A stretch of DNA of 53,758 bases from a virus. Its lineage: Duplodnaviria; Caudoviricetes. The position numbers were made by a program, and so were the translations under genes. Location of the stretch: positions 1 to 53,758 of IMG/VR virus record IMGVR_UViG_3300035531_000094. One strand, given 5' to 3'. The notes under the pieces are model-generated. The model saw only the letters and a list, made by a program, of their open reading frames with translations, was not told the DNA's origin and made no database searches. Below are positions 1 to 40,875 of this stretch, in pieces (the first letter of the stretch is position 1; each line of letters opens with the position of its first letter).

Positions 1-202
1 TTTTCTAATTTTGCTTTTAATTCATCTAAATCCATCGCTCGTATTTTTAAGGTTATTTACTCGTATCAATCTTTGTGCGTGTTCGAGGGCGGCACATACC
101 CTTACATTTTACCGTTGTACGCAAGCGGGTGAAGTGCTTCGATTTTAGTTTTCTGCCAATTTGAAAGAAAAATAAAAAATGCCCCGCCCGCTTCTGTTTT
201 TT

Positions 203-1054
203 TCAAAACAGTTTGAGTTGGCGTTTGTACATATCAAATCTTTGTAGTCCATTATCAAAGTATTCGTTATCAATTTCACAAATATCTAATTCAAATCCTT
301 CCATATCACACGCTATTGCCAAACTCATGCTGCCTCCATTTGTATCTATTATTTTCATGCCTTTGGTTGCATACTTCTGTAAAATGTATCTATAGAGCAT
401 AACAGGTTTTTGCGTTGGGTGAATCCGTTCCTCGTTAAGTTGTTTATTCCCTTGTTGTATAATTGCTTTCATTACATCTTTTCCGCAATAAACACCTTGT
501 ATCATTCCAGCCCAGCGAAAAAACACATTTTCAACTCTTTCAAACATCGAACAATAAGCAATTTCACAATCAGAAAACGAAACGCCTTCTGGTACTAATT
601 TATTCCATATCAACCTGCCACCTTTTAACTGAAAATCCATATAATTTATGCCAAAAATTATTTGATGCTTACTTACTCTTTGGAGTTCGGTTAGCCATTC
701 AATTCCTGCAGGTTCTTTATCCCAATCACCATGTTTATATTTTTTCTTTTTAACATGAAGTGTGCTACCGTTTTTTTGTTTGCATGGTCTATTGTCTTCT
801 TGCGTATAAGCCATTTTTGCAACATTAATTCCATAAGGCGGGTCAACTATTGCAAGGTCGTAATACTTATCGGGTTTAGTTTTCATAAACTCAATATTAT
901 CACATAAATAAAAATTAATTTCCCCACGCTTCGCATTTTTTATTTTTTGTGCTTCGTTGGTAGGTTCGTGCGAACAATCCGCCAGCGTACAACATGCAGT
1001 ATATTCCATGCCTTGCTGTATCTGTTCTTGATGCTTATTTTCTCGTTCAATCAT
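203..1054 (-). CDS. DNA methyltransferase (N6-adenine/N4-cytosine, beta class)
   Basis: DLAIVDPPY catalytic motif, HPTQKP, and a C-terminal SAM-binding motif (IIDTNGGSMS...CEID). Confidence 0.9.
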   Translation of the reverse strand: MIERENKHQEQIQQGMEYTACCTLADCSHEPTNEAQKIKNAKRGEINFYLCDNIEFMKTKPDKYYDLAIVDPPYGINVAKMAYTQEDNRPCKQKNGSTLHVKKKKYKHGDWDKEPAGIEWLTELQRVSKHQIIFGINYMDFQLKGGRLIWNKLVPEGVSFSDCEIAYCSMFERVENVFFRWAGMIQGVYCGKDVMKAIIQQGNKQLNEERIHPTQKPVMLYRYILQKYATKGMKIIDTNGGSMSLAIACDMEGFELDICEIDNEYFDNGLQRFDMYKRQLKLF

Positions 1055-1119
1055 TATCGTAAATTTGAAAGTTAATCACTCGTATTTCGGCACGTAACAT
1101 ACTGCCGTTCGTTATGGGC
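985..1119 (+). repeat. attC-like hairpin 1
   Basis: GCGTACAAC..GCAGTAT..CATGCC / GGCACG..ATACTGC..GTTATGGGC. Confidence 0.75.
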
Positions 1120-1153
1120 AAGCGTAAGAAAACCTCACGCTTGCCCGACAACC

Positions 1154-1390
1154 TTACTCTTTTGTAATGTAGTATTCTTCTTGTATATAAGAATTGTCCA
1201 ACATTTCGATGAACACAAAGTCCATATCTCTTGGCTCTTCGTAATCTTCATCGTTTTCTTTGGCCGATGAAATTGATTTTACCTCAAATGTTGGGCAGCT
1301 TTCATCATCTTCAATAGCTACGTTCATTACTCGTACCTCTAATTCGCTTGGGTACTGTTTCAGTTTTTCAATTAATTCAGATACTAACAT
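1154..1390 (-). CDS. Small acidic hypothetical phage protein
   Basis: ORF 1154..1426; the likelier start is MLVSELIEKL at 1390. Confidence 0.65.
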   Translation of the reverse strand: MLVSELIEKLKQYPSELEVRVMNVAIEDDESCPTFEVKSISSAKENDEDYEEPRDMDFVFIEMLDNSYIQEEYYITKE

Positions 1391-1411
1391 AAAATTGATA
1401 TTAAAACGCCA

Positions 1412-1547
1412 GCCCATAACACACAATATAAAATATACGGGTGTCGGTGCTGTATTGTACGGTACTACCTTTAATTAATTGTCAAATGTATCGGGATAGG
1501 ATACCGCTTTTAATCCCGTACATTTCATATTGTCAAACGTTACCTGC
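1412..1547 (+). repeat. attC-like hairpin 2
   Basis: GCCCATAAC..ACAATAT..TACGGG / CCCGTA..ATATTGT..GTTACCTGC. Confidence 0.75.
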
Positions 1548-2106
1548 AATACCTCTCAACGGATGCGATAGTATCGTGTATAGCCCCGCCATGTGAGAAC
1601 AGTGCAATTCGCTCAACTTCAAAGCCTCTGTTTTTACCCATTGTATTACTGTGGTATCCGAAAGTTATTACAAGTCCATTAGGTTTTAGTATTCTCGGAA
1701 GTTCGTCTTTGAGTTGGCGAAATGGGGAAGCCTTAATCCCATTGTACATTTCCATACTTTTACGATAAGCATAAGGCGGGTCTAACAATATCGTGTTAAA
1801 CCTTTTACCGTCCCATTCTTTAACGAACTGCAATGCGTCCTTGTGATATTCTGCCACCCCATGTTCGCCTAAGTCGTTTCTAACTTCATCAATATCAAGT
1901 TTTGTAATCCCAGCAAATAAATTTAACGTACTACCCTCGCACGTTCTTTCAACCCATTCCCTGATAGGTTTAACACTAAATGTCCATTTATTCAAAGGGC
2001 ATTTAATATAATCAAACATCGGTACAGCAGGTAACACGTTATATAGTGTATTTGCCTCGGTATTTTTAGGTTTTCCTCTTTTATTTTTTGTCATATCGTA
2101 AATCAA
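1540..2106 (-). CDS. Putative adenine DNA methyltransferase (compact)
   Basis: LNLFAG motif I followed by ILLDPPY. Confidence 0.75.
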   Translation of the reverse strand: MIYDMTKNKRGKPKNTEANTLYNVLPAVPMFDYIKCPLNKWTFSVKPIREWVERTCEGSTLNLFAGITKLDIDEVRNDLGEHGVAEYHKDALQFVKEWDGKRFNTILLDPPYAYRKSMEMYNGIKASPFRQLKDELPRILKPNGLVITFGYHSNTMGKNRGFEVERIALFSHGGAIHDTIASVERYCR

Positions 2107-2160
2107 ATTTTGTGTTTCAAATCAGGGGGCAAACACCCCATATAACTATCCGTTACCTGC
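2027..2160 (+). repeat. attC-like hairpin 3 (arms near-identical to hairpin 4)
   Basis: GCAGGTAACACGTTATATAGTGTATTTGCC ... GGCAAACACCCCATATAAC..GTTACCTGC. Confidence 0.8.
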
Positions 2161-2175
2161 AATGCCAGTCCGTGG

Positions 2176-2865
2176 TCAAAACAGGCGTTTCTGCGATGCG
2201 AAAAGTTTAAAACGCTTTTCCTGTTCTTCGAAATAATTTTTATCAATCTCAAATCCTACAAAGTTGAACCCGCCTTTCGCACACGCAATTCTCAATGATC
2301 CACTCCCTACATGGGTATCTAAAATCAAATTGCCTTCGCTCGCATAGTTCATAAGCAGCCAATCATATAATTTAACTGGCTTTTGTGTGGGGTGTATTTT
2401 CATTTCATCGCCTGTTCTTGTGGCTGGCAGTTTATATATCTTTGAAACTGTTTGGAAGCTCATCCACGCAAATTCAGCAGCACTAAAATTTTCAAATGGC
2501 TGCTCTTTATCCCAAATTACAAACCCCCTACTTCCGGGTAAATCAAAGTAATTTCCTCCCCAAATAATTTGATTTTTAGATACCCTGAAAAGTTCGGTGA
2601 AGTAATCAGCACCCGGTTTTATATCCCACCGCTCAACACTGCCATTATTCAACATTCTGTTTTTTAACTTACCTCTGCCATGTGTAGAATCTTTAGGCAT
2701 TCCATAAGGCGGGTCAACTATGGCAAGGTCAAAGCATTTATCTGGAAAGCGTTTTAAACCGTGCATACAATCATCGTTGTACACTATTGAAGGCACAGCA
2801 GGTAACACGTTATATAGTGTATTTGCCGTGGCTTCTTGAACGTCAGTATCTTTGTTTAAGCTCAT
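2176..2865 (-). CDS. DNA methyltransferase (N6-adenine/N4-cytosine, beta class)
   Basis: DLAIVDPPY, HPTQKPV and ILDTHVGSGS motifs; paralogue of 203..1054. Confidence 0.92.
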   Translation of the reverse strand: MSLNKDTDVQEATANTLYNVLPAVPSIVYNDDCMHGLKRFPDKCFDLAIVDPPYGMPKDSTHGRGKLKNRMLNNGSVERWDIKPGADYFTELFRVSKNQIIWGGNYFDLPGSRGFVIWDKEQPFENFSAAEFAWMSFQTVSKIYKLPATRTGDEMKIHPTQKPVKLYDWLLMNYASEGNLILDTHVGSGSLRIACAKGGFNFVGFEIDKNYFEEQEKRFKLFASQKRLF

Positions 2866-2931
2866 ATCTAAATATCAAATTTTGTGTTTCAAATCAGGGG
2901 CAAACACCCCATATAACCATCCGTTAGAAAA
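2798..2931 (+). repeat. attC-like hairpin 4
   Basis: Same arms as 2027-2160; ends in GTTAGAAAA. Confidence 0.8.
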
Positions 2932-2934
2932 GCA

Positions 2935-3159
2935 TTAACCCCATAGCACTCCAGTACCACCGCACGATCTACATGTGTCAGGTGTGGCATCTGAACTTAA
3001 CCATGTTCCGCTTGTCTGATTATAGAAGCCATTTGGAACTATCCCATTTCCGCAGCAAACAGGGCATACATGTGGGGTTAACGACTTTCTAACATCATGT
3101 GATACGTCATCGCCTTGCGGCGGTGTTGTAGTTCTGTCTTTATTCGGTTGATGTAGCAT
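2935..3159 (-). CDS. Small zinc-finger protein (DnaJ-type CxxCxGxG repeats)
   Basis: CPVCCGNG and CRSCGGTG; the likelier start is MLHQ at 3159. Confidence 0.65.
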   Translation of the reverse strand: MLHQPNKDRTTTPPQGDDVSHDVRKSLTPHVCPVCCGNGIVPNGFYNQTSGTWLSSDATPDTCRSCGGTGVLWG

Positions 3160-3223
3160 AATATTTAATTTTTTAGGTTTATTAAAAGCGGCGACGACCG
3201 CATACATGTAATACGTTAGCGTT
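3085..3223 (+). repeat. attC-like hairpin 5
   Basis: CTTTCTAAC..CATGT..TCGCC / GGCGA..ACATG..GTTAGCGTT. Confidence 0.7.
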
Positions 3224-3533
3224 CATTGCTAACAAAATCTATACAAGGCGTAAGTGTGTCTTTATAAAATTTTTGGATAACAACCTTCCCGCCATTTATA
3301 GGAGTCATTTCAAAGTAATATCTATCCTTAAATGAATACACTGGCGTTCCAATTTCAATTTTATTAAATCCGTTATACCCAAAAATTTTATTTAAGTGTC
3401 CTATTAAAATTGGTTGTTCTACCATAGGCAACGAAACGCTAACACCAAATAAATCCAATACTTGCTGTTGTGCGAGTTCAACCGATAGTGTTCCAATTTT
3501 AACTTTGTCTAATATTTCAACTAATTTTTCCAT
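3216..3533 (-). CDS. Hypothetical protein
   Basis: 105-aa ORF; starts in the hairpin 6 loop and stops at the GTTA junction. Confidence 0.65.
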   Translation of the reverse strand: MEKLVEILDKVKIGTLSVELAQQQVLDLFGVSVSLPMVEQPILIGHLNKIFGYNGFNKIEIGTPVYSFKDRYYFEMTPINGGKVVIQKFYKDTLTPCIDFVSNER

Positions 3534-3568
3534 AAATCGTACTGTATTTATTTGTAACCGTTATAAAC
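3435..3568 (+). repeat. attC-like hairpin 6
   Basis: AACGCTAAC..CAAATAAAT / ATTTATTTG..GTTATAAAC. Confidence 0.7.
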
Positions 3569-3586
3569 AACACTACTGAACAGCAT

Positions 3587-3838
3587 TTAATCACCGTCGG
3601 AGGTATTCGGTAATTTATTTTTTCCCGCCCACTTATGCCCTGCGGGGCATTTTGAAAGTGGCATTTTATCAAAGAAATATCCTTTGTATTCAAATGGGAA
3701 TTTGAATGCTTTCAAATAATCATAACTGAAATTCTTATCAGCCAGTTCCGGGTCTTCGCACAAACCCGTTAAGGTGGTGTAAATTGCCACCTCAAACGGA
3801 TTTTCAATGTTTTGTAATTTAATTAGGTGCTTTCTCAT
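3587..3838 (-). CDS. Hypothetical protein
   Basis: 83-aa ORF, last gene of the mini-operon in unit 7. Confidence 0.6.
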   Translation of the reverse strand: MRKHLIKLQNIENPFEVAIYTTLTGLCEDPELADKNFSYDYLKAFKFPFEYKGYFFDKMPLSKCPAGHKWAGKNKLPNTSDGD

Positions 3839-4002
3839 TTTTTTAGATTGTTTTTTTTAATCAGGTTGTTATACTTTTTCTCTGAAATACTCTGAGACAC
3901 ACCTTCAACTTTCAACCAATAGTCAACCTTTCCATTAATTTCTTCGTTCCAGATTTCGCATTTTTGATTTTTGTCGTTCCAAAAAAATATTGAAGTTTTC
4001 AT
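3823..4002 (-). CDS. Small hypothetical protein (59 aa, below ORF-track cutoff)
   Basis: Manual translation MKTSIFFWNDKNQKCEIW...; fills the gap between neighbouring genes. Confidence 0.5.
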
Positions 4003-4018
4003 AATTGTAATTTTTAGA

Positions 4019-4348
4019 TTATAAGCATTTTACGTGATATTGTAATTCTTCTTCTGTTTCTGCTCCGTCAACATCATAAGCATCGAAAAACCATCCGTCA
4101 ATTAATAAGTAGCAGTGAGAAATACCTTCTGAATATTCAGATTCGATAGTTTCATAACCTTCTAATTCATTTTGCATTTCATCAGAAAGATTGTTAACTA
4201 TTTCAACTTCGATTCCCATTTCAGAAAGTGCGTTATATGCTTTTTTCGCAAAAACAGCGCAGTCACCGTTATTAATTTGGTCAGCGTCTCCACCCATTTC
4301 TTCAACTATGCTTTTCAGTGTTTCTTCTATTTGATTCCAGTTTGTCAT
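4019..4348 (-). CDS. Acidic hypothetical protein, possible Cys-His-Asp (papain/transglutaminase-like) fold
   Basis: INNGDCAVFA...SHCYL...FFDA motif spacing. Confidence 0.55.
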   Translation of the reverse strand: MTNWNQIEETLKSIVEEMGGDADQINNGDCAVFAKKAYNALSEMGIEVEIVNNLSDEMQNELEGYETIESEYSEGISHCYLLIDGWFFDAYDVDGAETEEELQYHVKCL

Positions 4349-4527
4349 GATGTTGTATCTTTTTGTTTTATTTCTATACTGTAAAGATACGACATATTTT
4401 TATACTGTGCAAGTTTTTATATAAAAAAATGATGTTTTTTTATACTTTTTTTTCTTTTTCCCTCCCTTCAAAAATAAATTACCAGGGGCGCAGCATTTAA
4501 TGAATGTTGTTTCGGGCTTCCCGTGCA

Positions 4528-4587
4528 GTTTATAACACGGTGTCAAACCGCATTAAAACGACGGTTTACACCTGTCCGTTATAGGGC
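4528..4587 (+). repeat. attC-like hairpin 7 (minimal, about 60 bp)
   Basis: GTTTATAAC AC GGTGT C AAACCG ... CGGTTT ACACC TGTCC GTTATAGGGC. Confidence 0.8.
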
Positions 4588-4851
4588 ATTTAATGGAACC
4601 TTGATTATTTGTTTTTTATTAATTGCAATTAAAGCACATTTCCCTTGTATTGTATTATCAATACTAGTATATGCATAATCAGTTTCTGCATTGTGAATAT
4701 TAAATTCAGTCCTAATCATATTTCTATAACCAACAAATATACCTGTTGTTTCTTTTATTTGAATTACATCCCAATATCGCTCATCATTATCAGTAGTTCT
4801 TACATATTTTACTTTTACTGTAACCTTATCACCTAAATTCAAAGTTTCCAT
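4579..4851 (-). CDS. Hypothetical protein
   Basis: 90-aa ORF stopping at the GTTA junction. Confidence 0.65.
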   Translation of the reverse strand: METLNLGDKVTVKVKYVRTTDNDERYWDVIQIKETTGIFVGYRNMIRTEFNIHNAETDYAYTSIDNTIQGKCALIAINKKQIIKVPLNAL

Positions 4852-4862
4852 AATTTTTACAT

Positions 4863-4961
4863 ATTTATAACAAGCAATATATTTAATTGCCTGTCAAGTT
4901 ACTACTAATTTTAAAAGTATCTGGTATGGCAACTAATCATATTGCCGTACCGTTATAGGGC
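4863..4961 (+). repeat. attC-like hairpin 8
   Basis: TATAAC AA GCAATAT..TTGCC / GGCAA..ATATTGC..GTTATAGGGC. Confidence 0.75.
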
Positions 4962-4963
4962 AT

Positions 4964-5149
4964 TTAAATCAGCCCTAAATCACGTGCTGAATCTTCTGGT
5001 GTCATTCCGTCTAAAGTATCGGAAAAATAAGTATCTAATTTATTTGCGTATTTTTCCGAACGAACTAATTGCTTCCGAAATTCTTTTGCTAATTTCTTGC
5101 CTTCTTCTGTTTTTATGTGTTTTCGTAGTTTGTCAAATTCTTCAATCAT
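4964..5149 (-). CDS. Hypothetical protein
   Basis: 61-aa ORF filling unit 9. Confidence 0.6.
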   Translation of the reverse strand: MIEEFDKLRKHIKTEEGKKLAKEFRKQLVRSEKYANKLDTYFSDTLDGMTPEDSARDLGLI

Positions 5150-5164
5150 AACTCAAGTAAAAAC

Positions 5165-5302
5165 GCCCTATAACCAGCGGTCATAAAACAGCAGGGCATA
5201 TGTGCTGTTCGTACCGTTGTGCATCTATTCATCATTTGTAGTAGGCTGATAGGGTTCTGCGCTTAATCCCTGCCGTTTCATACCGCCAAATCGTTAGCAA
5301 CC
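5165..5302 (+). repeat. attC-like hairpin 9
   Basis: GCCCTATAAC..GCGGT..AAAC.GCAGGG / CCCTGC.GTTT..ACCGC..GTTAGCAACC. Confidence 0.75.
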
Positions 5303-5638
5303 ATTTTGTGCTTTTTTATAGCCTTCCATAAACCCCTCAATCATCCAGTATTTTTCCATGGCTGTAAATCTATCTTCTACGCTTAACGCAATTTCATCCT
5401 CCAGCCATTTGTCAGCAAGTTCACCAATTTCTTTAAATGATAAACGGTCGCTAACATGCGGTATATTGCAGTTGCTTTCGCTTTGTTCAACTCCGTTCGC
5501 TAACTTCTGCTCTAAAAATTCAACATATTCATTACAATAAGACCCTTGTTCACTATGCATATCTCCAATACCAGTATCTTGTAAAAATCTGCATCGTTGG
5601 TGCTTTTCTTCAAATTCTTTTATAAGTTCCGTTTTCAT
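5294..5638 (-). CDS. Hypothetical protein
   Basis: 114-aa ORF; starts in the hairpin 10 loop and stops at the GTTA junction. Confidence 0.65.
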   Translation of the reverse strand: MKTELIKEFEEKHQRCRFLQDTGIGDMHSEQGSYCNEYVEFLEQKLANGVEQSESNCNIPHVSDRLSFKEIGELADKWLEDEIALSVEDRFTAMEKYWMIEGFMEGYKKAQNGC

Positions 5639-5736
5639 AATCGCTCTCTATTTAAGTTGTTTAACATTATTATTTTAATCAAAGTCGGTAGGTTATTCAG
5701 CGGCAACCGACAACATACCGCAGTAATGTTAGCAAC
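5446..5736 (+). repeat. attC-like hairpin 10 (long coding loop)
   Basis: GGTCGCTAAC A TGCGGTAT..GTTGC / GCAAC..ATACCGCA..GTTAGCAAC. Confidence 0.7.
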
Positions 5737-5745
5737 AATAAAAAA

Positions 5746-5925
5746 TTATTCCCTCTGTTGCTCTCTATCGTCCTCTTGTGCCCTATCGTCTATTTGCTCA
5801 GGAAATTGCCTTTCATAAAGCGATTCAGCATATCCCCACCCACGCAAATATTCAAGTCCCGGATCTCCTTTGGGTTCTTTACCTAAATAATAATCGTCCA
5901 TTCCTGTATCAAATTTATTTGACAT
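5746..5925 (-). CDS. Small acidic hypothetical protein (59 aa)
   Basis: Manual translation MSNKFDTGMDDYYLGKEPK...; fills unit 11. Confidence 0.55.
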   Translation of the reverse strand: MSNKFDTGMDDYYLGKEPKGDPGLEYLRGWGYAESLYERQFPEQIDDRAQEDDREQQRE

Positions 5926-5936
5926 AATTTTTAAAA

Positions 5937-6038
5937 GTTGCTAACAAAGGCTATAAACAAAAAGCCTCTGTTAAGGTTAATATTTCAATTTATCTTTTGT
6001 GGTATTGGCTTTCAGTTCATAGCCAAACCGTTGTAACG
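5937..6038 (+). repeat. attC-like hairpin 11
   Basis: GTTGCTAAC..GGCTAT.AAC..AAAGCC / GGCTTT..GTT.ATAGCC..GTTGTAACG. Confidence 0.75.
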
Positions 6039-6142
6039 CATTTTGCGCAGAAATTTTGCGCTAAAAAACAATTCACTTCTTAGCGCAAAACGTACGCTTC
6101 GCCGTTACAACTCTGTGTATAGTGCATAGCTTGTCGGTGCAT

Positions 6143-6346
6143 TTAGTCAACATCAGAGGAGTTATTCGTTTTAATATTTTTCCCTCCCTCTTTGCTTTTT
6201 ACAAAAGCATAAAAACTGCATAAACCTGCTTCGATGCGTTTTTTTGCGGAGCTATTTCTAAAGCTTAGATAATTGCTATATCCGAAGAACTCGGCTATCT
6301 GTTTGCCAGATAAGCCGAGTTCTTTTTTTAGTTGTTTAATGTTCAT
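6143..6346 (-). CDS. Small HTH DNA-binding protein
   Basis: IKQLKKELGLSGKQIAEFFGY is XRE/Cro-like. Confidence 0.65.
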   Translation of the reverse strand: MNIKQLKKELGLSGKQIAEFFGYSNYLSFRNSSAKKRIEAGLCSFYAFVKSKEGGKNIKTNNSSDVD

Positions 6347-6522
6347 TTTTGAAATTGTTTCAAATCAAATCCACTTGGCAATTCAGCAATTAAATCACTT
6401 CCTTTTATGATGCTTTTCATTAATGTATCTGCATCTTTTTTGTTGCCTTCTTTTTCGCCGTTTAAAATTTCAATTGCTGTTGCTACTTCTGAGTTGCTTA
6501 ATTCAATTCTTTGAGTTTCCAT
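6343..6522 (-). CDS. Small hypothetical protein (59 aa)
   Basis: Manual translation METQRIELSNSEVATAIEIL...; ATGA overlap with the HTH gene. Confidence 0.55.
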   Translation of the reverse strand: METQRIELSNSEVATAIEILNGEKEGNKKDADTLMKSIIKGSDLIAELPSGFDLKQFQK

Positions 6523-6574
6523 CTTGTTTTGTCTTAAATAGTTATTCGGGAAATATCCCCCATTGTTTCTAATA

Positions 6575-6628
6575 CAAATGTAAGCATTTAATTACAAACC
6601 ACCAAATAAAGTAAGCAAACAATTACAA
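6575..6628 (-). promoter_or_regulatory. Bacteroidota-type promoter with tandem operator-like repeats
   Basis: Minus-strand TACATTTG matches the -7 TAnnTTTG consensus, with an upstream TTTG. GTAAGCA-N4-ATTACA occurs twice. Confidence 0.6.
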
Positions 6629-6742
6629 TAAAATGTTATAGAACATATAATCCCGCCCTAAAAATATTAAAACTACTCTGGTGCAATTAATCAACAACAG
6701 TGAGGCTACACGCTACGACACCATACACGTGTAGCGTTGTGG

Positions 6743-6928
6743 TCATTGCTCCAAAAACCACGCTCTGATAGTTCTGTAATCGAATTTACCGTCTTTATAA
6801 TCATGTGGTATTTTGCTTTCATAAAACTTGTTAGATAAGTCGCTCCACCACCACGAAGGCAACGAACCGCTAACAAGCAATATAAAACATGCCTTAATTC
6901 TCTGTTTAATTGAAAGTTTGTTTTTCAT
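6743..6928 (-). CDS. Hypothetical protein
   Basis: 61-aa ORF starting in the hairpin 13 loop. Confidence 0.55.
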   Translation of the reverse strand: MKNKLSIKQRIKACFILLVSGSLPSWWWSDLSNKFYESKIPHDYKDGKFDYRTIRAWFLEQ

Positions 6929-7000
6929 ATCGAATTTATTTTTTAATTTATAGTTTCGTGTTTCAAATCAGCACGTTTCATATTGCCGACCGTTATAAGC
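6866..7000 (+). repeat. attC-like hairpin 13 (last in the array)
   Basis: GCTAAC AA GCAATAT.AAAC.TGC / GCA.GTTT.ATATTGC..GTTATAAGC. Confidence 0.75.
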
Positions 7001-7002
7001 CA

Positions 7003-7206
7003 TTAGCCAACCCACAAAGAAAGCTGCTTAGTCTCATTTGTGAATCTTTGGCAACCATCTTCAAAGTAATCTTTTTCAATTTCACATCCGTAAAAATCCA
7101 AACCCATTTCCCACGCTGCGAGTCTACTGCTTTGGCTGCCTAAGTGAGTGTCTAATATTTTGTTTATTGCATCGCTGCCTTCTACTGTGTTCTTTTTTTT
7201 ATTCAT
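7003..7206 (-). pseudogene. C-terminal fragment of a DNA methyltransferase
   Basis: ILDTHLGSQSSRLAA...GCEIEKDYF matches the C-termini of the two beta-class MTases, but DPPY is absent. Confidence 0.75.
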
Positions 7207-7245
7207 TTTTGTAAGTGTTTATTTAAATTTGTTATATTAATATCA

Positions 7246-7575
7246 TTACACCACAATCGGTTCTCCACAAAAAGGGCATTCGCCAATCTGTATTACTTTA
7301 GTTCTATGGAAACTCCACGCACTTGCCATATCAATTTCACTATCCGTCATTGGCGTGTACCAGTTTCCTGAAACTTGACCTGTTATGTCGTAGTATTTTC
7401 CGTTATATTTTGTTATTACATGATTTTTTTCATTTGTAATGTAAGGTTCGCATTCCGGAAAATAAGTCTTCAGGAGTAAAAAAAACTGATAACACGCGCC
7501 GTTCATGTATATCATTTCGATGTACTTGTCGGTTTTTCGAATTGCGTTTATGAACTGTAATATGTTAGTTGTCAT
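7246..7575 (-). CDS. Hypothetical protein with C-terminal CPFCG
   Basis: 109-aa ORF in the operon; GAC...HV...YYDITG motif. Confidence 0.7.
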   Translation of the reverse strand: MTTNILQFINAIRKTDKYIEMIYMNGACYQFFLLLKTYFPECEPYITNEKNHVITKYNGKYYDITGQVSGNWYTPMTDSEIDMASAWSFHRTKVIQIGECPFCGEPIVV

Positions 7576-7578
7576 TTT

Positions 7579-8100
7579 TCAATATCTAAAATTTGTGAAA
7601 TGAATAATTGCCATTGGTTTATTTTGTCGGACTTTAAACCAGTCGCAAAAATCATCAAATGAAAGCCCATCGTTTTTAGCGATTTCTTCCCAGTTAATCA
7701 TTTTCCCATTTATAGGAGCAAAAACAAAGTTTGTAGGGTCTTCGAGTTTTTGAATTCCAACCCCTGATTCATTGTCGAGCCTGGCGAACTCTACCTGCTT
7801 TGACCCGTCTTTTTTGTAGTTATACGGACTGCCGGACCAATAGCGCAAGGATAAATAAGCATTGCCAGCAATAACTTCATCAATCCTTTTTTTCCATAGC
7901 TCGTAGTTGCCCCGTATGGTGTGAATTTTCTCTATTGTGACTTCGGAATATAACTTCCTTTCTTTAATCAGTTCTTGGCTTCCTTCCTTCCACATGGGAG
8001 CTATTTTGTTATAGATTTTCTCGACGAAAAAGGTTGGCTGTCCTTTCTGATTGTGTGTTGCCGGAAATGTCCGGCTTACTGTTAATACGTAAGTTTTCAT
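7579..8100 (-). CDS. Phage protein, possibly ASCH/PUA-like
   Basis: KIHTIR and IAKNDGLSFDDFCDWF motifs. Confidence 0.55.
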   Translation of the reverse strand: MKTYVLTVSRTFPATHNQKGQPTFFVEKIYNKIAPMWKEGSQELIKERKLYSEVTIEKIHTIRGNYELWKKRIDEVIAGNAYLSLRYWSGSPYNYKKDGSKQVEFARLDNESGVGIQKLEDPTNFVFAPINGKMINWEEIAKNDGLSFDDFCDWFKVRQNKPMAIIHFTNFRY

Positions 8101-8110
8101 TGTTGTTGTT

Positions 8111-9514: not shown

Positions 9515-10216
9515 TTACCTCTTCTTCCACGGGTTTTGAATTCCTTTTTCTTCTAATATATCTTTAAATTTTGCTTTATACTTACTGGAAATATCCTCTA
9601 ATAAGGCAGCATCAAGTTTCATAGGCTGTCTTTTAATCTCCATCAATTTCTCCATAGTATCTTTGCCATGCTTATTTTTAATATAGACAGCCATTTCATC
9701 CATACTCCCACCCCGGTAATGGTTACACTGGTCGCATTGTGGTCCTACATTTAGCTCTAAAAATGCTGTTGAATAGTTTGTGTTGTTGCCGTCAAAAACT
9801 TTGATGTAATGACCAACATGGCAATTTCTACTATTAACAAGCATTAGTTTTCCGCAAGTACAACACCTGGTGGTTGTTCCCTTTTTGTCGATTGTGTTTT
9901 TCAATAAAATACATCTTGAAAACCATCTCCATGCCGTCGATTTATAAAACCTTTCTTTAGGTGTTTTAAGCTTGTTTTTGACCTTCTTTTTATTTGGGGT
10001 GTACTTACCCGGCTTAAAGCCCGAACGTTTATTATACCCCATCAGGTTGCTTTGAGAAAGCAATTTTTTGTTCTCCTTCCTTCGTTTTTTCGATTCAAAG
10101 TCTTTTAAGGATTGGCACCGGTGGCATAGTTTTGGGTTAATTGTGCTGTTGTTATGCGGCTTTCTGAATGTTTCGCCGCATAGTTTACAGATTAGTTGTT
10201 CGCCTTCGTGTATCAT
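9515..10216 (-). CDS. NinG/Rap-like endonuclease
   Basis: CCTCG..CHVGHY..NVGPQCDQCN..GG motif pattern of the lambda NinG family. Confidence 0.75.
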   Translation of the reverse strand: MIHEGEQLICKLCGETFRKPHNNSTINPKLCHRCQSLKDFESKKRRKENKKLLSQSNLMGYNKRSGFKPGKYTPNKKKVKNKLKTPKERFYKSTAWRWFSRCILLKNTIDKKGTTTRCCTCGKLMLVNSRNCHVGHYIKVFDGNNTNYSTAFLELNVGPQCDQCNHYRGGSMDEMAVYIKNKHGKDTMEKLMEIKRQPMKLDAALLEDISSKYKAKFKDILEEKGIQNPWKKR

Positions 10217-11966: not shown

Positions 11967-12416
11967 TTACTGTCTTTTATTATAGCTCCCCGATACTCCT
12001 CGGGATGCGTTTAATTCTTCTTTATACTTCGATAGTAATGAACGGTACCAGTCGAGTTGATGTGTGGCAGTTGCGTTTAACCTGCCGATAAAATCAACCA
12101 ACCAGGTTTCATATGTACAGGCTGAGCGGATAAACTCTTTTTGTACGGACGCTGATAGATAAGTACCTTCCATTTCGGCAAGTAGCTGTTTAAGGATATC
12201 GGAGCGCAACCGTTCGTTCAGGTGCAATTTTGCATCGGCAAGCATTGCCCCTGTTCTGGCTAAATAAACCGATATTTGATTGCCCCTCATTTCAATTTCA
12301 TCACCGTGAACCTGCATGTGTTCAGAAGAGGTTTCCATGTCAGCCTCTAAAAAAGACTGAATATTTAAGGCCTCCTCTTCGAGCTTTTTTGTTGGTGTAA
12401 TAAAATCGTATATCAT
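11967..12416 (-). CDS. Hypothetical helical phage protein
   Basis: 149-aa ORF overlapping the upstream stop codon. Confidence 0.75.
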   Translation of the reverse strand: MIYDFITPTKKLEEEALNIQSFLEADMETSSEHMQVHGDEIEMRGNQISVYLARTGAMLADAKLHLNERLRSDILKQLLAEMEGTYLSASVQKEFIRSACTYETWLVDFIGRLNATATHQLDWYRSLLSKYKEELNASRGVSGSYNKRQ

Positions 12417-13153
12417 AAAACTGATTTGTTAAATGGTATTGTCATTCCTTTATTTGCTACGTGTACCATCCTCCCGGTCTGTTCGACTACTTCTCTTTTC
12501 ATTAGCTCTTCGTTGCTGTGCCCGTCTGATAAGTGTATCAATACAATGTTTACCACATTTGACAAGTCGTTGGCTCCTAATAATTTTTTACAGGTACGTA
12601 AACTCATGTGTGAATTGTGTATTCGTTTATACCTGAACAGTTCAAGTTTACCTGAATTTAAAAGGTCGTCCACTATTTCATCTACATAATTTGCTTCAAC
12701 AATAACATGGCTTAAGCCTTTGAATTTGTAAGTTGAATAGTGCGTGTCAGTGAGGAAAAGAACTTTCCCGGACTCCGGGTGGTCGATTATGTAGCCAAAT
12801 GGTTCTTCTGCATCGTGTATAACATCAAATGGCATTATCTTAAAGTTTCCGGCCTTGAAAACCTGTTTTGGCTTTACCGCCACAGGCTTTCTTTCGCCGT
12901 ATAAGTTCAATTTATTTATTGTGCCTTCTGATGTGAAAACATTGACACCCCTGTTGAGGTATTCTTTTACGTATTTAGCATGGTCGCCGTGTTCGTGTGA
13001 AAGAATACACCCTTTAACAATCGAAATGTTAAAGTCAAGGGCTTTCTGTACTTCCTTAAAGCGAACCCCTGCCTCTATAACTAACGCTTCGTTATCATTG
13101 TGTAGGATGTATCCGTTACCTGAGCTTGATGATGCCAATACTGTTAGTTCCAT
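12413..13153 (-). CDS. MBL-fold metallo-hydrolase (probable nuclease)
   Basis: ASSSSGN, SHEHGDH, HDA, TDT and HLS motifs. Confidence 0.9.
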   Translation of the reverse strand: MELTVLASSSSGNGYILHNDNEALVIEAGVRFKEVQKALDFNISIVKGCILSHEHGDHAKYVKEYLNRGVNVFTSEGTINKLNLYGERKPVAVKPKQVFKAGNFKIMPFDVIHDAEEPFGYIIDHPESGKVLFLTDTHYSTYKFKGLSHVIVEANYVDEIVDDLLNSGKLELFRYKRIHNSHMSLRTCKKLLGANDLSNVVNIVLIHLSDGHSNEELMKREVVEQTGRMVHVANKGMTIPFNKSVL

Positions 13154-13154
13154 A

Positions 13155-13454
13155 TCAATGTGTTGAAGGCCTTGTAACTTTATAACTGTACGTGTTGTCG
13201 CCAGTCTTTTTAAACTCGGTATAGTACGGCGCGAAGTTTAAACCAAAGTCATGCTCTTTTTTCATCAACTCCTTGATTTTGTCTTCGCTATACCTTGCTG
13301 GCTCTAAAAAGCCTGTACAAAACTGCCTTACTGCTTGTTCTTCTGAGTAATCGGGCTGTGAAACAACTTCTACGACATAGTGGTAATAACTATCTCCGTA
13401 CCTTCTTCTTTGCCCGGCCTCTTTTGTCTCTACCTTAAAGTGATAATCTTTCAT
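13155..13454 (-). CDS. Hypothetical protein
   Basis: The likelier start is MKDYHF at 13454; the longer track ORF overlaps recT. Confidence 0.65.
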   Translation of the reverse strand: MKDYHFKVETKEAGQRRRYGDSYYHYVVEVVSQPDYSEEQAVRQFCTGFLEPARYSEDKIKELMKKEHDFGLNFAPYYTEFKKTGDNTYSYKVTRPSTH

Positions 13455-13467
13455 TGTCGTTGCTTTT

Positions 13468-14382
13468 TTAGTTGTCAAATGGTAAATCGTCAGGGAACTG
13501 CGCTTGTTGTTGCGCCTGTGCCCTTGGTTTCTCTTCCTGTTTGGGTTGCGGTTGTTTTTCGGGCTGTTCGGGTTCGGATTCTTTATTCGTGGAAACTTCG
13601 TTGTATTCTTCGGCTTCAATGTCGAGTGTTTCCTCGTTCTCTCTTGATTTTATGTTTTTGCTGCCTTCAACTAAAACAGCATCATCAGAGGCGTTTATAT
13701 AAGGCTTGCAAATCCTATTTATTATAGTTTTTTTTGCCATTTGGTCGGTGAAATTTTTATGTGCCTTTGAACCGCCATTTGTAGCACCCATTTCCCATGC
13801 TCTTTGAATCTGTGATATTGTCATTGGTTCCATTTCCGATGTACCGTCATTGAAAATGATAGTTGCATAGGCACCACGTATTTTATTTATGTCTATGTTT
13901 TCAAGTTTCTGCACATGTTTAATTACTTTTCTCATGCCTGTTTCCGGGCTAATCTCAAATTGGAAATCATCATCTTGATAAATAATATTGGCTGTTATGC
14001 GTTGAATGTCCGGGTTGTACCTTTTTGCAAGGGCTATTGTGCCAAAATATTCACGCTGCATGGTCAGGCTGTTGCCGTATGCAATAAACGAACACTGGTT
14101 TTTTTGAACATTTAACCCTTCTGTCACCATCTTCATTAATGCGTTGGCAATTGATGTTTTTGAACAGGTTTCAATTACAGGCTTATTATTTTTGTCTTTT
14201 GTTTCAAGAAGTTTGAACCATGCTGCTTTGAGTGCATTGGCTGGTGAATAGTCCTTTGGTAAATTTAAAGCACCTTCTTTTTGATACTCATTTACCTGTG
14301 AAAGCACCTGGTTAATTGTTTCTTCTTGAAACTTTTTAAGATATTGGCCTGTGGCTGCCGGTGTTTGATTACTTTGTGTCAT
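13468..14382 (-). CDS. recT: RecT-family single-strand annealing recombinase
   Basis: SIANAL..MV..GL...KNQC.FIAYG, and F.DQMAKKT.INR.CK. Confidence 0.88.
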   Translation of the reverse strand: MTQSNQTPAATGQYLKKFQEETINQVLSQVNEYQKEGALNLPKDYSPANALKAAWFKLLETKDKNNKPVIETCSKTSIANALMKMVTEGLNVQKNQCSFIAYGNSLTMQREYFGTIALAKRYNPDIQRITANIIYQDDDFQFEISPETGMRKVIKHVQKLENIDINKIRGAYATIIFNDGTSEMEPMTISQIQRAWEMGATNGGSKAHKNFTDQMAKKTIINRICKPYINASDDAVLVEGSKNIKSRENEETLDIEAEEYNEVSTNKESEPEQPEKQPQPKQEEKPRAQAQQQAQFPDDLPFDN

Positions 14383-40373: not shown

Positions 40374-40694
40374 GTTAGCATTAATTTACCAACCGCACAG
40401 TATCGCCAACATAAAATTCCCTGTTTGTATAAAAGTTGTAGCTGTCAGTAACAACCCAATATTTCATGTCCGCATTATTGTTGCTTTTGCTAATTCTCTC
40501 AACTATGCTGCATTCTTTAATTGTTTTTGGGGTACTTGTATTACACCCCACGCATAAAACTAATGCTAACAATATGTAAAGTGCATAGCCTAGTTTATTC
40601 TTGTAATTTTTCATCTTATTTTAATTTTGCATGTTAATATTAAGTTTCTACATTTTATCAGCAAGGCTACGTTCCTGCATTCAACGTTATAACG
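40374..40694 (+). mobile_element. Isolated attC-like cassette
   Basis: GTTAGCATTA (40374) and TAATGCTAAC (40561) are perfect 10-bp reverse complements. The hairpin TAGCCT/AGGCTA closes at GTTATAACG (40686). Confidence 0.7.
40381..40614 (-). CDS. Small putative lipoprotein
   Basis: Hydrophobic N-terminus ending LVLCVGC. Confidence 0.6.
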   Translation of the reverse strand: MKNYKNKLGYALYILLALVLCVGCNTSTPKTIKECSIVERISKSNNNADMKYWVVTDSYNFYTNREFYVGDTVRLVN

Positions 40695-40875
40695 CATTTT
40701 GCGCAGAAATTTTGCGTAAAAATCTGGAGGTGTTGCCCAATTATCACTATGTTTTATATTTCTGTTTTTCATATACCTTCGTTCTTTTAATCCGTATTTT
40801 AACTACTTACAATATCGTGTCATAGGTCATTTTTTTATTTTTATTTTTTCGTATTCATAATTTATATCATTTGTT

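What the first reader, a model, noticed from the sequence alone, without database searches (positions are those of the whole stretch)
114..7000. Phage-borne integron-like cassette array: 13 units whose two ends are reverse complements
Seen: start/end boxes per unit are GTTGTACGC 114 / GCGTACAAC 985; GTTATGGGC 1111 / GCCCATAAC 1412; GTTACCTGC 1539 / GCAGGTAAC 2027; GTTACCTGC 2152 / GCAGGTAAC 2798; GTTAGAAA 2923 / TTTCTAAC 3086; GTTAGCGTT 3215 / AACGCTAAC 3435; GTTATAAAC 3560 / GTTTATAAC 4528; GTTATAGGGC 4952 / GCCCTATAAC 5165; GTTAGCAACC 5293 / GGTCGCTAAC 5446; GTTAGCAAC 5728 / GTTGCTAAC 5937; GTTGTAACG 6030 / CGTTACAAC 6103. Each AAC opens an imperfect hairpin that closes just before the next GTT. 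Hairpin sequences differ but the architecture is conserved. Established: in integrons the R'' box of a cassette is complementary to the R' bases at the start of the same cassette, because they pair in the excised circle. Inference: this is a recombinase-shuffled accessory-gene array at the distal end of a phage early operon, with no integrase in the window.
Basis: partly seen in the sequence, partly recalled or inferred. Interest (0 to 1): 0.95.

Follow-up and report, generated by a model that had tools for sequence, protein, structure and literature searches.

The report
Integron-type gene cassette array in phage
The left 7 kb of this phage genome is a row of small swappable gene units, several of them DNA methyltransferases, separated by folded-DNA recombination sites of the same kind that form huge gene-cassette arrays beside a recombinase gene in Flavobacteria chromosomes, so the phage seems to borrow its host's gene-shuffling system.

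Summary
All 22 boxes stand at the stated coordinates. The ends of each unit match far better than shuffled pairings (0 of 200,000 permutations).

The junctions are about 125-nt hairpins with a conserved design: TAAC/GTTA foot, asymmetric 5/2-nt spacer, 12-bp covarying stem.

A covariance model of them finds 12 sites in the window, all on the gene strand. It also finds strand-specific sites in 19 of 80 related viral contigs, in cultured Flavobacterium phages and in Polaribacter phage P12002S.

Gene-content breakpoints fall at the G|TT foot, both between seven near-identical Flavobacterium phages and in population variants of this phage.

None of 11 array-bearing phage records (five complete cultured genomes, four contigs estimated complete, one at 88% and this window at 85%) encodes a tyrosine recombinase.

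The same hairpins form 10 to over 50 kb arrays in 131 of 151 Flavobacteriaceae genomes. These arrays usually lie beside a XerA/IntI-like integrase that lacks the IntI insert.

Host cassette genes lie opposite to the folding strand; phage ones lie on it. Best reading: a non-canonical integron-type system whose phage arrays are shuffled in trans. A two-site CALIN in Polaribacter phage P12002L is a partial precedent (Qi et al. 2023).

The parts
1..117 (-). Junction hairpin J0, cut by the contig end; GTT foot at 114-116; holds the ATG (45-43) of a gene that runs off the contig
   Evidence: Sequence. Variant contigs in runs X3 and X5 diverge exactly after 116.
115..1111 (-). Cassette 1: N6/N4 DNA methyltransferase (ORF 203-1054), cognate boxes at 114 and 985
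   Evidence: Pfam PF01555, 6.8e-10; boxes 10 of 12.
990..1114 (-). Hairpin J1 (125 nt); the ATG of cassette 1 lies inside it
   Evidence: R1 match 68.1 bits, E 5.2e-13 (used in training).
1112..1539 (-). Cassette 2: ORF 1154-1426 (90 aa, unknown function), with hairpin J2 at 1417-1542
   Evidence: Boxes 10 of 12; R1 82.4 bits; no Pfam family.
1540..2152 (-). Cassette 3: DNA methyltransferase (ORF 1540-2106), with hairpin J3 at 2032-2155
   Evidence: phrog_11619, 6.7e-41; R1 80.9 bits; boxes 10 of 12, with a compensatory TACC/TACC where cassette 4 has TGCC/TGCC.
2153..2923 (-). Cassette 4: N6/N4 DNA methyltransferase (ORF 2176-2865), with hairpin J4 at 2803-2926
   Evidence: PF01555, 3.1e-16; R1 82.2 bits. 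Homologues in other phages carry different, covarying boxes.
2924..3215 (-). Cassette 5: ORF 2935-3207 (90 aa), with hairpin J5 at 3090-3218
   Evidence: R1 50.5 bits; boxes 9 of 12. The joint 3214->5728 in run X2 starts here.
3216..3560 (-). Cassette 6: ORF 3216-3533 (105 aa), with hairpin J6 at 3440-3563
   Evidence: R1 75.5 bits. Contigs of X3, X4 and X5 begin or end at 3559.
3561..4578 (-). Cassette 7: three ORFs (3587-3838, 3835-4002, 4019-4348) and the short hairpin J7 at 4533-4581
   Evidence: Boxes 9 of 12; R1 33.7 bits, E 1.8e-5, not in training.
4579..4952 (-). Cassette 8: ORF 4579-4851 (90 aa), with hairpin J8 at 4868-4955; its ends are not cognate
   Evidence: Boxes 5 of 12; R1 39.2 bits, not in training. 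A variant in run X4 joins the right arm of J7 directly to cassette 9.
4953..5293 (-). Cassette 9: ORF 4964-5149 (61 aa), with hairpin J9 at 5171-5296
   Evidence: Boxes 10 of 12; R1 65.8 bits.
5294..5728 (-). Cassette 10: ORF 5294-5638 (114 aa); long hairpin J10 at 5452-5731 with 60 codons in its loop
   Evidence: Arms pair. R1 gives only E 0.36 at 5703-5739. Joints of X2 and X5 land at 5728.
5729..6030 (-). Cassette 11: ORF 5746-5925 (59 aa), with hairpin J11 at 5942-6033
   Evidence: Boxes 9 of 12; R1 31.1 bits, not in training. A joint in X5 leaves at 6032.
6031..6111 (-). ORF-less unit with cognate ends (GTTGTAACG / CGTTACAAC); the AAC is not followed by a closing arm
6112..6995 (-). Upstream part of the array: ORFs 6143-6346, 6343-6522 and 6743-6928, and hairpin J13 at 6871-6995
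   Evidence: R1 100.6 bits. No Pfam or PHROG family. A GTTA at 6541 is the right edge of a 507-nt skip in X5.
7003..7206 (-). Truncated methyltransferase (C-terminal 67 aa only), preceded in gene sense by a bare TATAAC; probable upstream edge of the array
   Evidence: PF01555, profile positions 185-217 only, E 8e-4, below cut-off; sequence.
40374..40697 (-). Solitary cassette elsewhere in the genome: hairpin 40559-40697, ORF 40381-40614 (77 aa, signal-peptide-like N-terminus), with an exact cognate box ending in TAAC at 40374-40386
   Evidence: R1 39.3 bits, E 1e-6, not in training. The predicted box is found with 0 mismatches. Sequence.
9515..10216 (-). NinG/Rap-like junction endonuclease; considered as the enzyme and rejected as a requirement
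   Evidence: PF05766, 4.2e-10. Present in 5 of 5 cultured array phages but in only 2 of 11 array-bearing IMG/VR contigs.
12413..14382 (-). Phage recombination genes: metallo-beta-lactamase-fold nuclease (12413-13153) and RecT (13468-14382); relevant to the homologous-recombination rival
   Evidence: PF12706 2.9e-8; PF03837 2.3e-33.

Best explanation
Window 1 to about 7234 is an array of at least 13 mobile gene cassettes of the integron type.

Structure (shown). Each cassette runs, on the + strand, from G|TT through a minus-strand gene to a box that is the reverse complement of its own start, followed by AAC and a hairpin that ends at the next G. In an excised circle, the two boxes and the hairpin would form one long imperfect stem-loop.

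Which strand folds (inferred). I take the gene-sense (minus) strand as the folding strand. Nearly all mismatches are G:T on that strand, and the crossover foot is its 5' TAA|C, as in the bottom strand of attC.

Who recombines it (inferred, about 55%). The phage has no recombinase for this. I infer that a host tyrosine recombinase acts in trans, as on integron CALINs. The candidate is the XerA/IntI-like integrase found at the head of chromosomal arrays of the same hairpins in Flavobacteriaceae.

Host versus phage cassettes. In host arrays the genes lie on the opposite strand, followed by the site (the canonical integron layout). In phage arrays the genes lie on the folding strand, and about half start inside the hairpin, so each cassette still carries a whole gene.

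Cargo. Three methyltransferases and one fragment suggest a swappable anti-restriction toolkit; that function is inferred.
For: Cognate ends.
- In the window: 104 of 144 positions, 0 of 200,000 permutations as high.
- In phage-type loci: 68 of 102 adjacent site pairs are at least 9 of 12 identical. The controls are 80 of 4710 random pairs and 3 of 132 pairs across one hairpin. These 68 reduce to 56 distinct pairs.

Covariation.
- Homologous methyltransferase cassettes carry different boxes that change together: ACCTGC, AGGTGC, ATGGGC, ACCAGC, AGGCGA.
- Hairpin stem: 91.7% of cells paired against 64.3% when shuffled (0 of 500), and 29-51% when slid. All 12 stem pairs show compensatory changes.

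Strand specificity.
- All 12 window sites with E<1e-4 are on the minus strand.
- 66 of 66 sites in the viral loci and 108 of 108 are on the gene strand.
- Of 100 box mismatches, 57 are G (5' box) against A; none is the reverse.

Breakpoints.
- Phages hemulen and stinky are 99.98% identical except for a 1181-bp block bounded by TAAC|G.
- Across seven Flavobacterium phages, 21 of 47 distinct array breakpoints lie within 6 nt of a GTT foot, against 2.1% expected.
- In other metagenome runs, a variant of this phage lacks exactly 3215-5727, with six shared letters (GTTAGC) at the joint. Other joints or loose ends lie at 116, 3555-3559, 4949-4950, 5728 and 6032.

No phage recombinase.
- PF00589 is absent from the window and from 10 other array-bearing phage records, nine of them complete or estimated 100% complete.
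- The window, hemulen and P12002S share only methyltransferases, a weak NinG match (hemulen only) and one replication protein (P12002S only).

Host system.
- R1 matches 131 of 151 Flavobacteriaceae genomes.
- There are 139 sites in 188 kb of ten fetched regions, on one strand per region.
- 100 of 127 adjacent pairs are cognate, and 113 of 115 genes lie opposite to the site strand.
- A 378-aa tyrosine recombinase sits at the head of the L204 array. Homologues head the arrays in 4 of 5 other genomes.
- Across the 151 genomes the integrase co-occurs with sites: 102/29/3/17, Fisher p 8e-8.
- R1 has no match in four non-Bacteroidota genomes.

Precedent. Qi et al. 2023 (PMC9892861; abstract, section 3.4 and passages read) called two attC sites beside methyltransferases in Polaribacter phage P12002L. 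IntI1 recombined one of them.
Against: - No circle, excision junction in raw reads, or recombinase activity was seen. The laid runs are contigs only.
- The link between the host integrase and the sites rests on adjacency and co-occurrence. Related genomes are not independent, and small or incomplete genomes lack both.
- The host of this phage is unknown (oil-field metagenome label).
- 22 of 47 phage breakpoints are not at a modelled foot and 4 lie at the other foot.
- Some population joints lie inside loops or genes: 751, 2400, 3510, 4491, 5990, 6894.
- The hemulen/stinky event shares 16 nt, so homology could have driven it.
- The phage has RecT and a partner nuclease.
- Unit 8 is not cognate.
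- The first 8 stem pairs were selected by my own scan, so part of the pairing figure is by construction. The last 4 pairs were not selected.
- The integron-integrase search (0 of 401 genomes over cut-off) had no positive control genome.
- No Bacteroidetes-type -7 promoter motif is in the loops (1 of 123), so how the cassettes are transcribed is open.
Confidence: 0.78

Rival explanations
1. The hairpins are regulatory elements (terminator or leader structures). Gene shuffling happens by relaxed homologous recombination between their conserved parts, driven by the phage's RecT system. This is what was proposed for promoter-stem-loop (PeSL) cassettes of T4-type phages (recalled from Arbiol et al. 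2010, not read here).
For: The window encodes RecT and a nuclease. The hemulen/stinky deletion has 16 shared nt at the joint. Some breakpoints lie inside hairpin loops.
Against: - Hairpins share only a 4-7-nt motif. Mean column identity of the 28 aligned hairpins is 53%.
- Several joints share only 4-6 nt: hemulen/filifjonk 2037-2040, and window 3214/5728.
- Homology cannot explain why each unit's two ends are complementary to each other and covary.
- It also cannot explain why the same sites form arrays headed by a tyrosine recombinase in hosts.
Confidence: 0.08
2. The structures act only in RNA, for example as mRNA processing or stability signals or as translational control, with 5'-3' pairing of each message. 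The complementarity of the ends is kept by selection on the transcript, not by DNA recombination.
For: In phages the folding strand is the mRNA strand. The mismatches are G:U-compatible. 70 of 126 hairpins hold the start codon.
Against: - In host arrays the same strand bias holds (G against A in 99 of the box mismatches), yet 113 of 115 genes are on the other strand. The bias therefore follows the DNA strand, not the transcript.
- Gene-content breakpoints sit at the feet.
- IntI1 recombined a site of this kind from P12002L in the assay of Qi et al..
Confidence: 0.04
3. This is an ordinary integron fragment (CALIN) picked up from a bacterial integron and carried passively. Its sites are canonical attC sites served by a canonical IntI, as Qi et al. 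2023 read the P12002L sites.
For: HattCI/Infernal called two such sites attC, and IntI1 recombined one. The AAC/GTT feet, R and L boxes and cognate ends are all integron features.
Against: - Phage cassettes are inverted relative to host cassettes: 90 of 96 against 2 of 115 on the site strand.
- They form up to about 8 kb of the early operon of virulent phages.
- The spacer is 5 against 2 nt, with the extra bases on the AAC arm. Canonical sites have 5-6 nt on each arm and extrahelical bases on the opposite arm (Nivina et al. 2016, passages).
- No integron integrase over the family cut-off was found in 401 Flavobacteriaceae genomes.
- The array-head integrase lacks model positions 180-239 of TIGR02249.
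Confidence: 0.08

Closest known systems
Integrons (IntI, attC, cassette arrays; sedentary chromosomal integrons)
   Same: - Imperfect hairpin sites with AAC/GTT feet.
- An inner (L) and an outer (R) stem separated by an unpaired spacer.
- Each cassette's end complementary to its own start.
- Crossover at G|TT.
- One recombinogenic strand.
- Long one-directional arrays headed by a tyrosine recombinase (in the hosts).
- Integrase-less arrays elsewhere (CALINs).
   Different: - The spacer is asymmetric (5 against 2 nt), with the extra bases on the AAC arm.
- I saw no extrahelical bases on the opposite arm.
- There are conserved G:T pairs in both stems.
- The outer stem extends to about 15 bp.
- The associated integrase is XerA-like, has a roughly 100-aa N-terminal extension and lacks the IntI insert.
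- It lies in the same direction as the cassettes.
- In phages the genes are on the folding strand and often start inside the site.
CALIN of virulent Polaribacter phage P12002L (Qi et al. 2023, PMC9892861)
   Same: Same phage group as P12002S, which carries R1 sites. P12002L has short-form sites of the same design beside its methyltransferases. The authors also read them as integron sites without an integrase.
   Different: They report two sites, in divergent directions, in one phage. They do not report, in the parts I read:
- the full arrays;
- the cognate boxes;
- the inverted gene orientation;
- the distinct geometry;
- breakpoints between related phages;
- the host chromosomal arrays and their integrase.
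PeSL regulatory cassettes of T4-type phages (recalled, not read)
   Same: Repeated stem-loop elements that flank small accessory genes in plastic regions of virulent phage genomes and mark gene gain and loss.
   Different: PeSLs are conserved in sequence and are thought to recombine by homology. Here the sequences differ, the ends of each unit are complementary, and the crossover is at one fixed foot.
Xer-dependent single-strand integration of CTX phage, and dif modules (recalled, not read)
   Same: A mobile element without its own recombinase uses a host Xer-family enzyme. In CTX the substrate is a folded single strand with an unpaired centre.
   Different: Those integrate whole elements at dif. 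Here many small cassettes stand in tandem, and the candidate enzyme is a dedicated array-linked paralogue. It is distinct from the roughly 300-aa Xer-like genes elsewhere in the same genomes.

Membership tests
Integron cassette array (attC sites) | Imperfect inverted repeat with conserved 5'-AAC / GTT-3' triplets closing the site | tested here: met
   AAC and GTT are invariant in 28 of 28 aligned hairpins. 132 of 137 phage-locus matches and 137 of 139 host matches have them in register.
Integron cassette array (attC sites) | The R'' box of a cassette is complementary to the bases at the start of the same cassette | tested here: met
   Window: 0 of 200,000 permutations as high. Phage loci: 68 of 102 pairs. 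Host arrays: 100 of 127 pairs.
Integron cassette array (attC sites) | Gain and loss of cassettes at G|TT of R' | tested here: met
   21 of 47 breakpoints lie at the GTT foot against 2.1% expected. Joint 3214->5728 shares GTTAGC. Resolution is limited to the shared 4-8 nt.
Integron cassette array (attC sites) | Extrahelical bases on the arm opposite the AAC triplet of the bottom strand; unpaired central spacer of 5-6 nt on each arm (Nivina et al. 2016) | tested here: not met
   The spacer is 5 nt on the AAC arm and 2 nt on the other. The consensus 12-bp stem has no bulge.
Integron cassette array (attC sites) | Recognised by the attC covariance model of IntegronFinder or HattCI | not testable with these tools
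   Neither program nor model is on hand, and no Rfam family matched. Qi et al. report two such calls in P12002L.
Integron (platform) | IntI: a tyrosine recombinase with the integron-specific insert in the catalytic domain, next to the array | tested here: not met
   - Phages: no PF00589 in 11 records.
- Hosts: the array-head recombinase scores 199 bits on TIGR02249 (cut-off 265) in two stretches that skip positions 180-239. It passes NF040815 XerA/integron integrase (232 bits against 220).
- 0 of 401 genomes are over the TIGR02249 cut-off; there was no positive control.
Integron (platform) | An attI site and a Pc promoter at the head of the array | not tested
   The heads of the host arrays were located but not analysed.
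CALIN (cluster of attC sites lacking an integrase) | Two or more sites close together with no integrase nearby | tested here: met
   12 modelled sites lie in 7 kb, and the 53.8-kb record holds no tyrosine recombinase. This holds only if the sites are accepted as attC-like.
PeSL-type regulatory cassettes | Conserved promoter plus terminator stem-loop repeated between genes | tested here: not met
   Hairpin sequences are only 53% identical per column. The Bacteroidetes -7 motif is in 1 of 123 loops. The sigma-70 scan was not run.

The most novel reading that the evidence does not exclude
Most Flavobacteriaceae, and at least some other Bacteroidota, carry a so far undescribed branch of the integron world. 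It has three marks: a XerA-like integrase without the IntI insert, a non-canonical folded site (asymmetric spacer, conserved G:T pairs), and chromosomal arrays of tens of kilobases.

Unrelated virulent phages of these hosts have turned the system against them. They keep integrase-less arrays of inverted cassettes, many of which carry their own start codon, inside their early operons. They use the host enzyme to swap anti-restriction methyltransferases and other accessory genes. Host and phage would then draw on one recombination machinery but on two cassette pools of opposite polarity.
Probability: 0.5. Interest if true: 0.92.

Novelty: new variant of a known kind. Interest (0 to 1): 0.86.

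Why it matters
If right, gene shuffling of the integron kind is not confined to bacteria with canonical IntI. It would be a routine part of the genome of virulent phages of a major marine and freshwater bacterial group, making up about a fifth of a 39-kb genome in the Lillamyvirus phages.

It would also explain how near-identical phages differ in methyltransferase content. Nilsson et al. 2020 (passages read) linked that difference to plating efficiency on an alternative host.

It points to very large, unannotated cassette reservoirs in Flavobacteriaceae chromosomes, and to a recombinase that handles folded sites without the IntI insert. That bears on how attC recognition evolved.

It gives cultured phage-host pairs in which cassette exchange could be measured directly.

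Tried and rejected
Searches that found nothing useful
- Megablast of 1-9000 against the phage collection found only a 38-nt methylase match.
- Rfam at E up to 10 gave only chance miRNA-like hits.
- The search for related loci with the neighbouring protein 8111-8782 found no relatives.
- An exact 19-nt hairpin pattern was not found in viral contigs.

Scans superseded by the covariance model
- My simple arm-pairing scans were too noisy on large sets: 180 against 129 hits, and 213 against 222.

NinG/Rap as the enzyme: rejected as a requirement
- It is in the window and in 5 of 5 cultured array phages.
- It is in only 2 of 11 array-bearing IMG/VR contigs, and in 2 of the 4 estimated complete. It is in 0 of 17 array-free contigs.

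Canonical integron integrase in hosts
- 0 of 5 and 0 of 401 genomes were over the cut-off. No positive control genome was available.

A promoter inside the hairpin: not supported
- TAnnTTTG occurs in 1 of 123 loops in sense and 18 in antisense.

Model R1 on P12002L
- It found only one site there, at 14494-14633. That phage's sites beside the methyltransferases are short forms (about 55-65 nt), seen by eye.

Laid runs
- Parts of the window without contig cover in runs X3-X5 are not counted as evidence.
- The back-joint 3173->938 with 33 other letters, in X2-X4, is unexplained.

Literature
- Eight literature searches found no description of Flavobacteriaceae arrays, and nothing on phage arrays beyond Qi et al. 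2023.
- The library holds open papers only. The supplements of Qi et al. and Nilsson et al. were closed.
- A ninth search was only to find the attC structure paper.

Tools not used
- Structure prediction, complex prediction, the atlas and the protein-wide searches.

Full report
**What the window is.** It is a whole IMG/VR virus record of 53,758 bases, linear, estimated 85% complete. All genes in 1-22,500 lie on the minus strand.

**The observation.**
- I took the 12 nt after each + strand GTT and the reverse complement of the 12 nt before the next AAC. The 12 units share 104 of 144 positions. Permuted pairings give 47.9 (sd 7.9), and 0 of 200,000 reach 104. The five variable bases next to the foot match at 55 of 60.
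- In the full matrix the cognate partner is the best match in nearly every row.
- Exceptions: unit 4579-4952 has the start box of the next unit; unit 3216-3560 needs a 1-nt indel; the ORF-less unit 6031-6111 matches over 6 nt.
- Cassettes 3 and 4 have the same six-base box but differ further out, by TACC/TACC against TGCC/TGCC. That is a compensatory change.

**Anatomy of the junctions.** On the + strand each junction reads AAC, 2-3 unpaired nt, a stem, a loop, the stem's partner, 5-6 unpaired nt, GTT. Eight junctions are 122-127 nt long. The others are 47, 86, 90 and 278 nt.

I aligned 28 hairpins of the long class in gene sense: eight from the window and twenty from five other loci.
- RNAalifold gave a 12-pair stem in which every pair shows compensatory change.
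- With the TAAC/GTTA foot added, 91.7% of cells pair, against 64.3% in shuffles (0 of 500) and 29-51% when the partner is slid.
- Caveat: my scan chose sites by pairing in the first eight stem positions, so that part is partly by construction. The last four pairs were not selected, and they also pair with many double changes.

**The covariance model.** Model R1 gives 12 matches in the window with E<1e-4, all on the minus strand.
- Three of these lie in the array and were not used in training (4525-4589, 4860-4963, 5934-6041).
- One lies far outside the array (40559-40697).

**Relatives.** The methyltransferase of cassette 4 has relatives in 80 viral loci.
- Around many of them the same layout appears. 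The boxes differ between homologues but change together at both ends: ACCTGC, AGGTGC, ATGGGC, ACCAGC, AGGCGA.
- R1 finds 66 sites (E<=0.01) in 19 of the 80 loci, all 66 on the gene strand.
- It finds 108 more in cultured phages and some bacterial contigs, again all on the gene strand.
- The eight bacterial-contig loci with hits are labelled Bacteroidota, except one 2.9-kb MAG contig labelled Methanolobus.
- Of 137 phage-locus matches, 5 were dropped because AAC/GTT were not in register.
- Among the remaining 132 sites, 68 of 102 adjacent pairs have boxes at least 9 of 12 identical. The controls are 80 of 4710 random pairs and 3 of 132 pairs across one hairpin. Near-duplicate arrays inflate this count; there are 56 distinct cognate pairs.
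- The mismatches are one-sided. 57 of 100 are G in the 5' box against A in the partner's complement, mostly at the eighth base after GTT, and none is the reverse. On the gene-sense strand this is a G:T pair. On the other strand it is an A:C mismatch.

**Do gene-content breakpoints fall at G|TT?** The cultured Baltic Flavobacterium phages give a clean test.
- The leftward operon of hemulen6-1 (about 1.8-9.8 kb of 39 kb) is one such array.
- Phages hemulen and stinky are 99.98% identical except for a 1181-bp block (a methyltransferase and two small genes). Its ends are TAAC|G in gene sense, with 16 shared nt.
- Phages hemulen and filifjonk switch partners at a 4-nt GTTA overlap.
- Over all pairs of seven phages, 47 distinct breakpoints lie in the arrays. 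Of these, 21 are within 6 nt of a modelled GTT foot (2.1% expected, p 4e-23), 4 are at the other foot and 22 are elsewhere. None of 26 breakpoints outside the arrays is at such a foot.

Population variants of this very phage give a second test. Contigs from four other runs labelled oil-field metagenome were laid on the window.
- One variant lacks exactly 3215-5727, with GTTAGC shared at the joint.
- Others diverge right after 116, or at 3555-3559, 4949-4950, 5728 and 6032. These are the GTT feet of J0, J6, J8, J10 and J11.
- One variant joins the right arm of J7 directly to cassette 9. That removes the non-cognate cassette 8.
- Other joints lie inside genes or loops (751, 2400, 3510, 4491, 5990, 6894). 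These are contigs, not reads, so they show variants and not intermediates.

**Which enzyme?**
- No tyrosine recombinase is encoded in the window, in five complete cultured array phages, or in five array-bearing IMG/VR contigs, four of which are estimated complete.
- The window, hemulen and P12002S share only methyltransferases, a weak NinG match (hemulen only) and one replication protein (P12002S only). The arrays therefore sit in unrelated backbones.
- NinG is not universal: 2 of 11 array-bearing contigs have it.

**The host side.** R1 matches 131 of 151 Flavobacteriaceae genomes at E<=1e-4.
- Ten fetched regions (188 kb) hold 139 sites, on one strand per region, with a median of 740 nt from one site to the next.
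- 100 of 127 adjacent pairs are cognate, with the same G-against-A position.
- There, 113 of 115 genes lie on the strand opposite to the model's orientation, and their stop codons abut the next site. This is the canonical integron layout. In phage-type loci, 90 of 96 genes lie on the model's strand.
- At the gene-upstream end of the L204 array lies a 378-aa tyrosine recombinase. It passes NF040815 (XerA/integron integrase, 232 bits against 220). It reaches only 199 bits on the integron-integrase model, in two stretches that skip positions 180-239, and it resembles XerA and IntI4 in the PDB.
- Homologues (37-43% identity) head the arrays in 4 of 5 other genomes, in the same direction as the cassettes.
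- Such homologues occur in 105 of 151 genomes and co-occur with sites (102/29/3/17, p 8e-8; kinship not corrected). In at least 24 listed cases, counted by eye, they share a contig with nearby sites.
- No canonical integron integrase passed its cut-off in 401 genomes (no positive control).
- R1 has no match in four non-Bacteroidota genomes and four matches in a Pontibacter genome.

**Comparison with the known.** Nivina et al. 2016 (passages read) state three things about canonical attC:
- the bottom strand carries 5'-AAC in R';
- the extrahelical bases lie on the opposite arm;
- the spacer is 5-6 nt on each arm.

Here three lines agree that the gene-sense strand of the phage is the bottom-strand equivalent: the crossover foot, the G:T bias, and the gene direction in host arrays. 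But the extra unpaired bases lie on the AAC arm, and the stem has no bulge.

The IntegronFinder 2.0 paper (passages) reports only In0 elements and one complete integron in Bacteroidetes.

Qi et al. 2023 (abstract, section 3.4 and passages) report a CALIN with two methyltransferases in Polaribacter phage P12002L. It has two predicted attC sites in divergent directions, and IntI1 recombined one of them. P12002S carries long-form R1 sites, and P12002L carries short-form sites of the same design.

Nilsson et al. 2020 (passages) link methyltransferase content to plating efficiency. The word 'hairpin' does not occur in the main text.

**Cargo.**
- Cassettes 1, 3 and 4 are DNA methyltransferases, and 7003-7206 is a methyltransferase fragment.
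- Of the other cassette ORFs, two have only weak matches (E about 5e-4 to 8e-4) to PHROG families of unknown function. The rest match no Pfam or PHROG family.
- Host cassettes in L204 include Fic, PLD-like and RDD proteins, and unknowns.

**Verdict.** The system works like an integron, but it fails two defining tests of canonical membership: site geometry and the IntI insert. The action of the host integrase on phage arrays is inferred, not shown.

Noticed in passing
window 40374-40697 (-): A solitary cassette far from the array. It has a hairpin not used in training (E 1e-6), a 77-aa ORF with a signal-peptide-like start, and an exact cognate box ending in TAAC. It looks like a cassette inserted at a secondary place among minus-strand genes.
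   Followed up: partly
Flavobacteriaceae genomes, e.g. G094:C1:531455-601477, G145:C1:1972597-1983950 (L204): Chromosomal arrays of the same hairpins, from about 10 kb to over 50 kb, headed by a 376-410-aa XerA/IntI-like tyrosine recombinase. 131 of 151 genomes have sites. I found no description of these arrays in the open literature searched.
   Followed up: partly
window 2032-2155 and 2803-2926; ORFs 1540-2106 and 2176-2865: Two different methyltransferases share a nearly identical hairpin, and hence the same N-terminal peptide stretch (ANTLYNVLPAV), which is encoded by the 3' arm. In runs X2-X4 a variant keeps 3510-3560 (leader and 8 codons of cassette 6) joined to a different sequence. Leaders may be exchanged separately from gene bodies.
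   Followed up: no
window 3173 -> 938 (runs X2, X3, X4): Contigs in three runs join 3173 back to 938, with 33 other letters between. This is a different cassette order or a chimeric variant; unexplained.
   Followed up: no
window 24851-36805 (+): A single open frame of 3984 aa in the structural half of the phage genome; not examined.
   Followed up: no
L185 (Polaribacter phage P12002S) 14478-14617 (+) and L206 (P12002L) 14494-14633 (+): An R1 match (E 2e-6) among the tail genes, next to the only minus-strand gene there (gp24). It may be another solitary cassette.
   Followed up: no
hairpin loops of phage-type sites (123 distinct): The Bacteroidetes -7 promoter motif TAnnTTTG is almost absent in sense (1 of 123) but occurs 18 times in antisense. 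A TTTGAAA motif follows the second stem in 19 loops.
   Followed up: no
L145 (Winogradskyella marina contig, 14.5 kb): This contig was brought in by the methyltransferase search, and four of its hairpins went into model training. Its cassettes are of the host type: 4 of 5 genes lie opposite to the site strand.
   Followed up: partly
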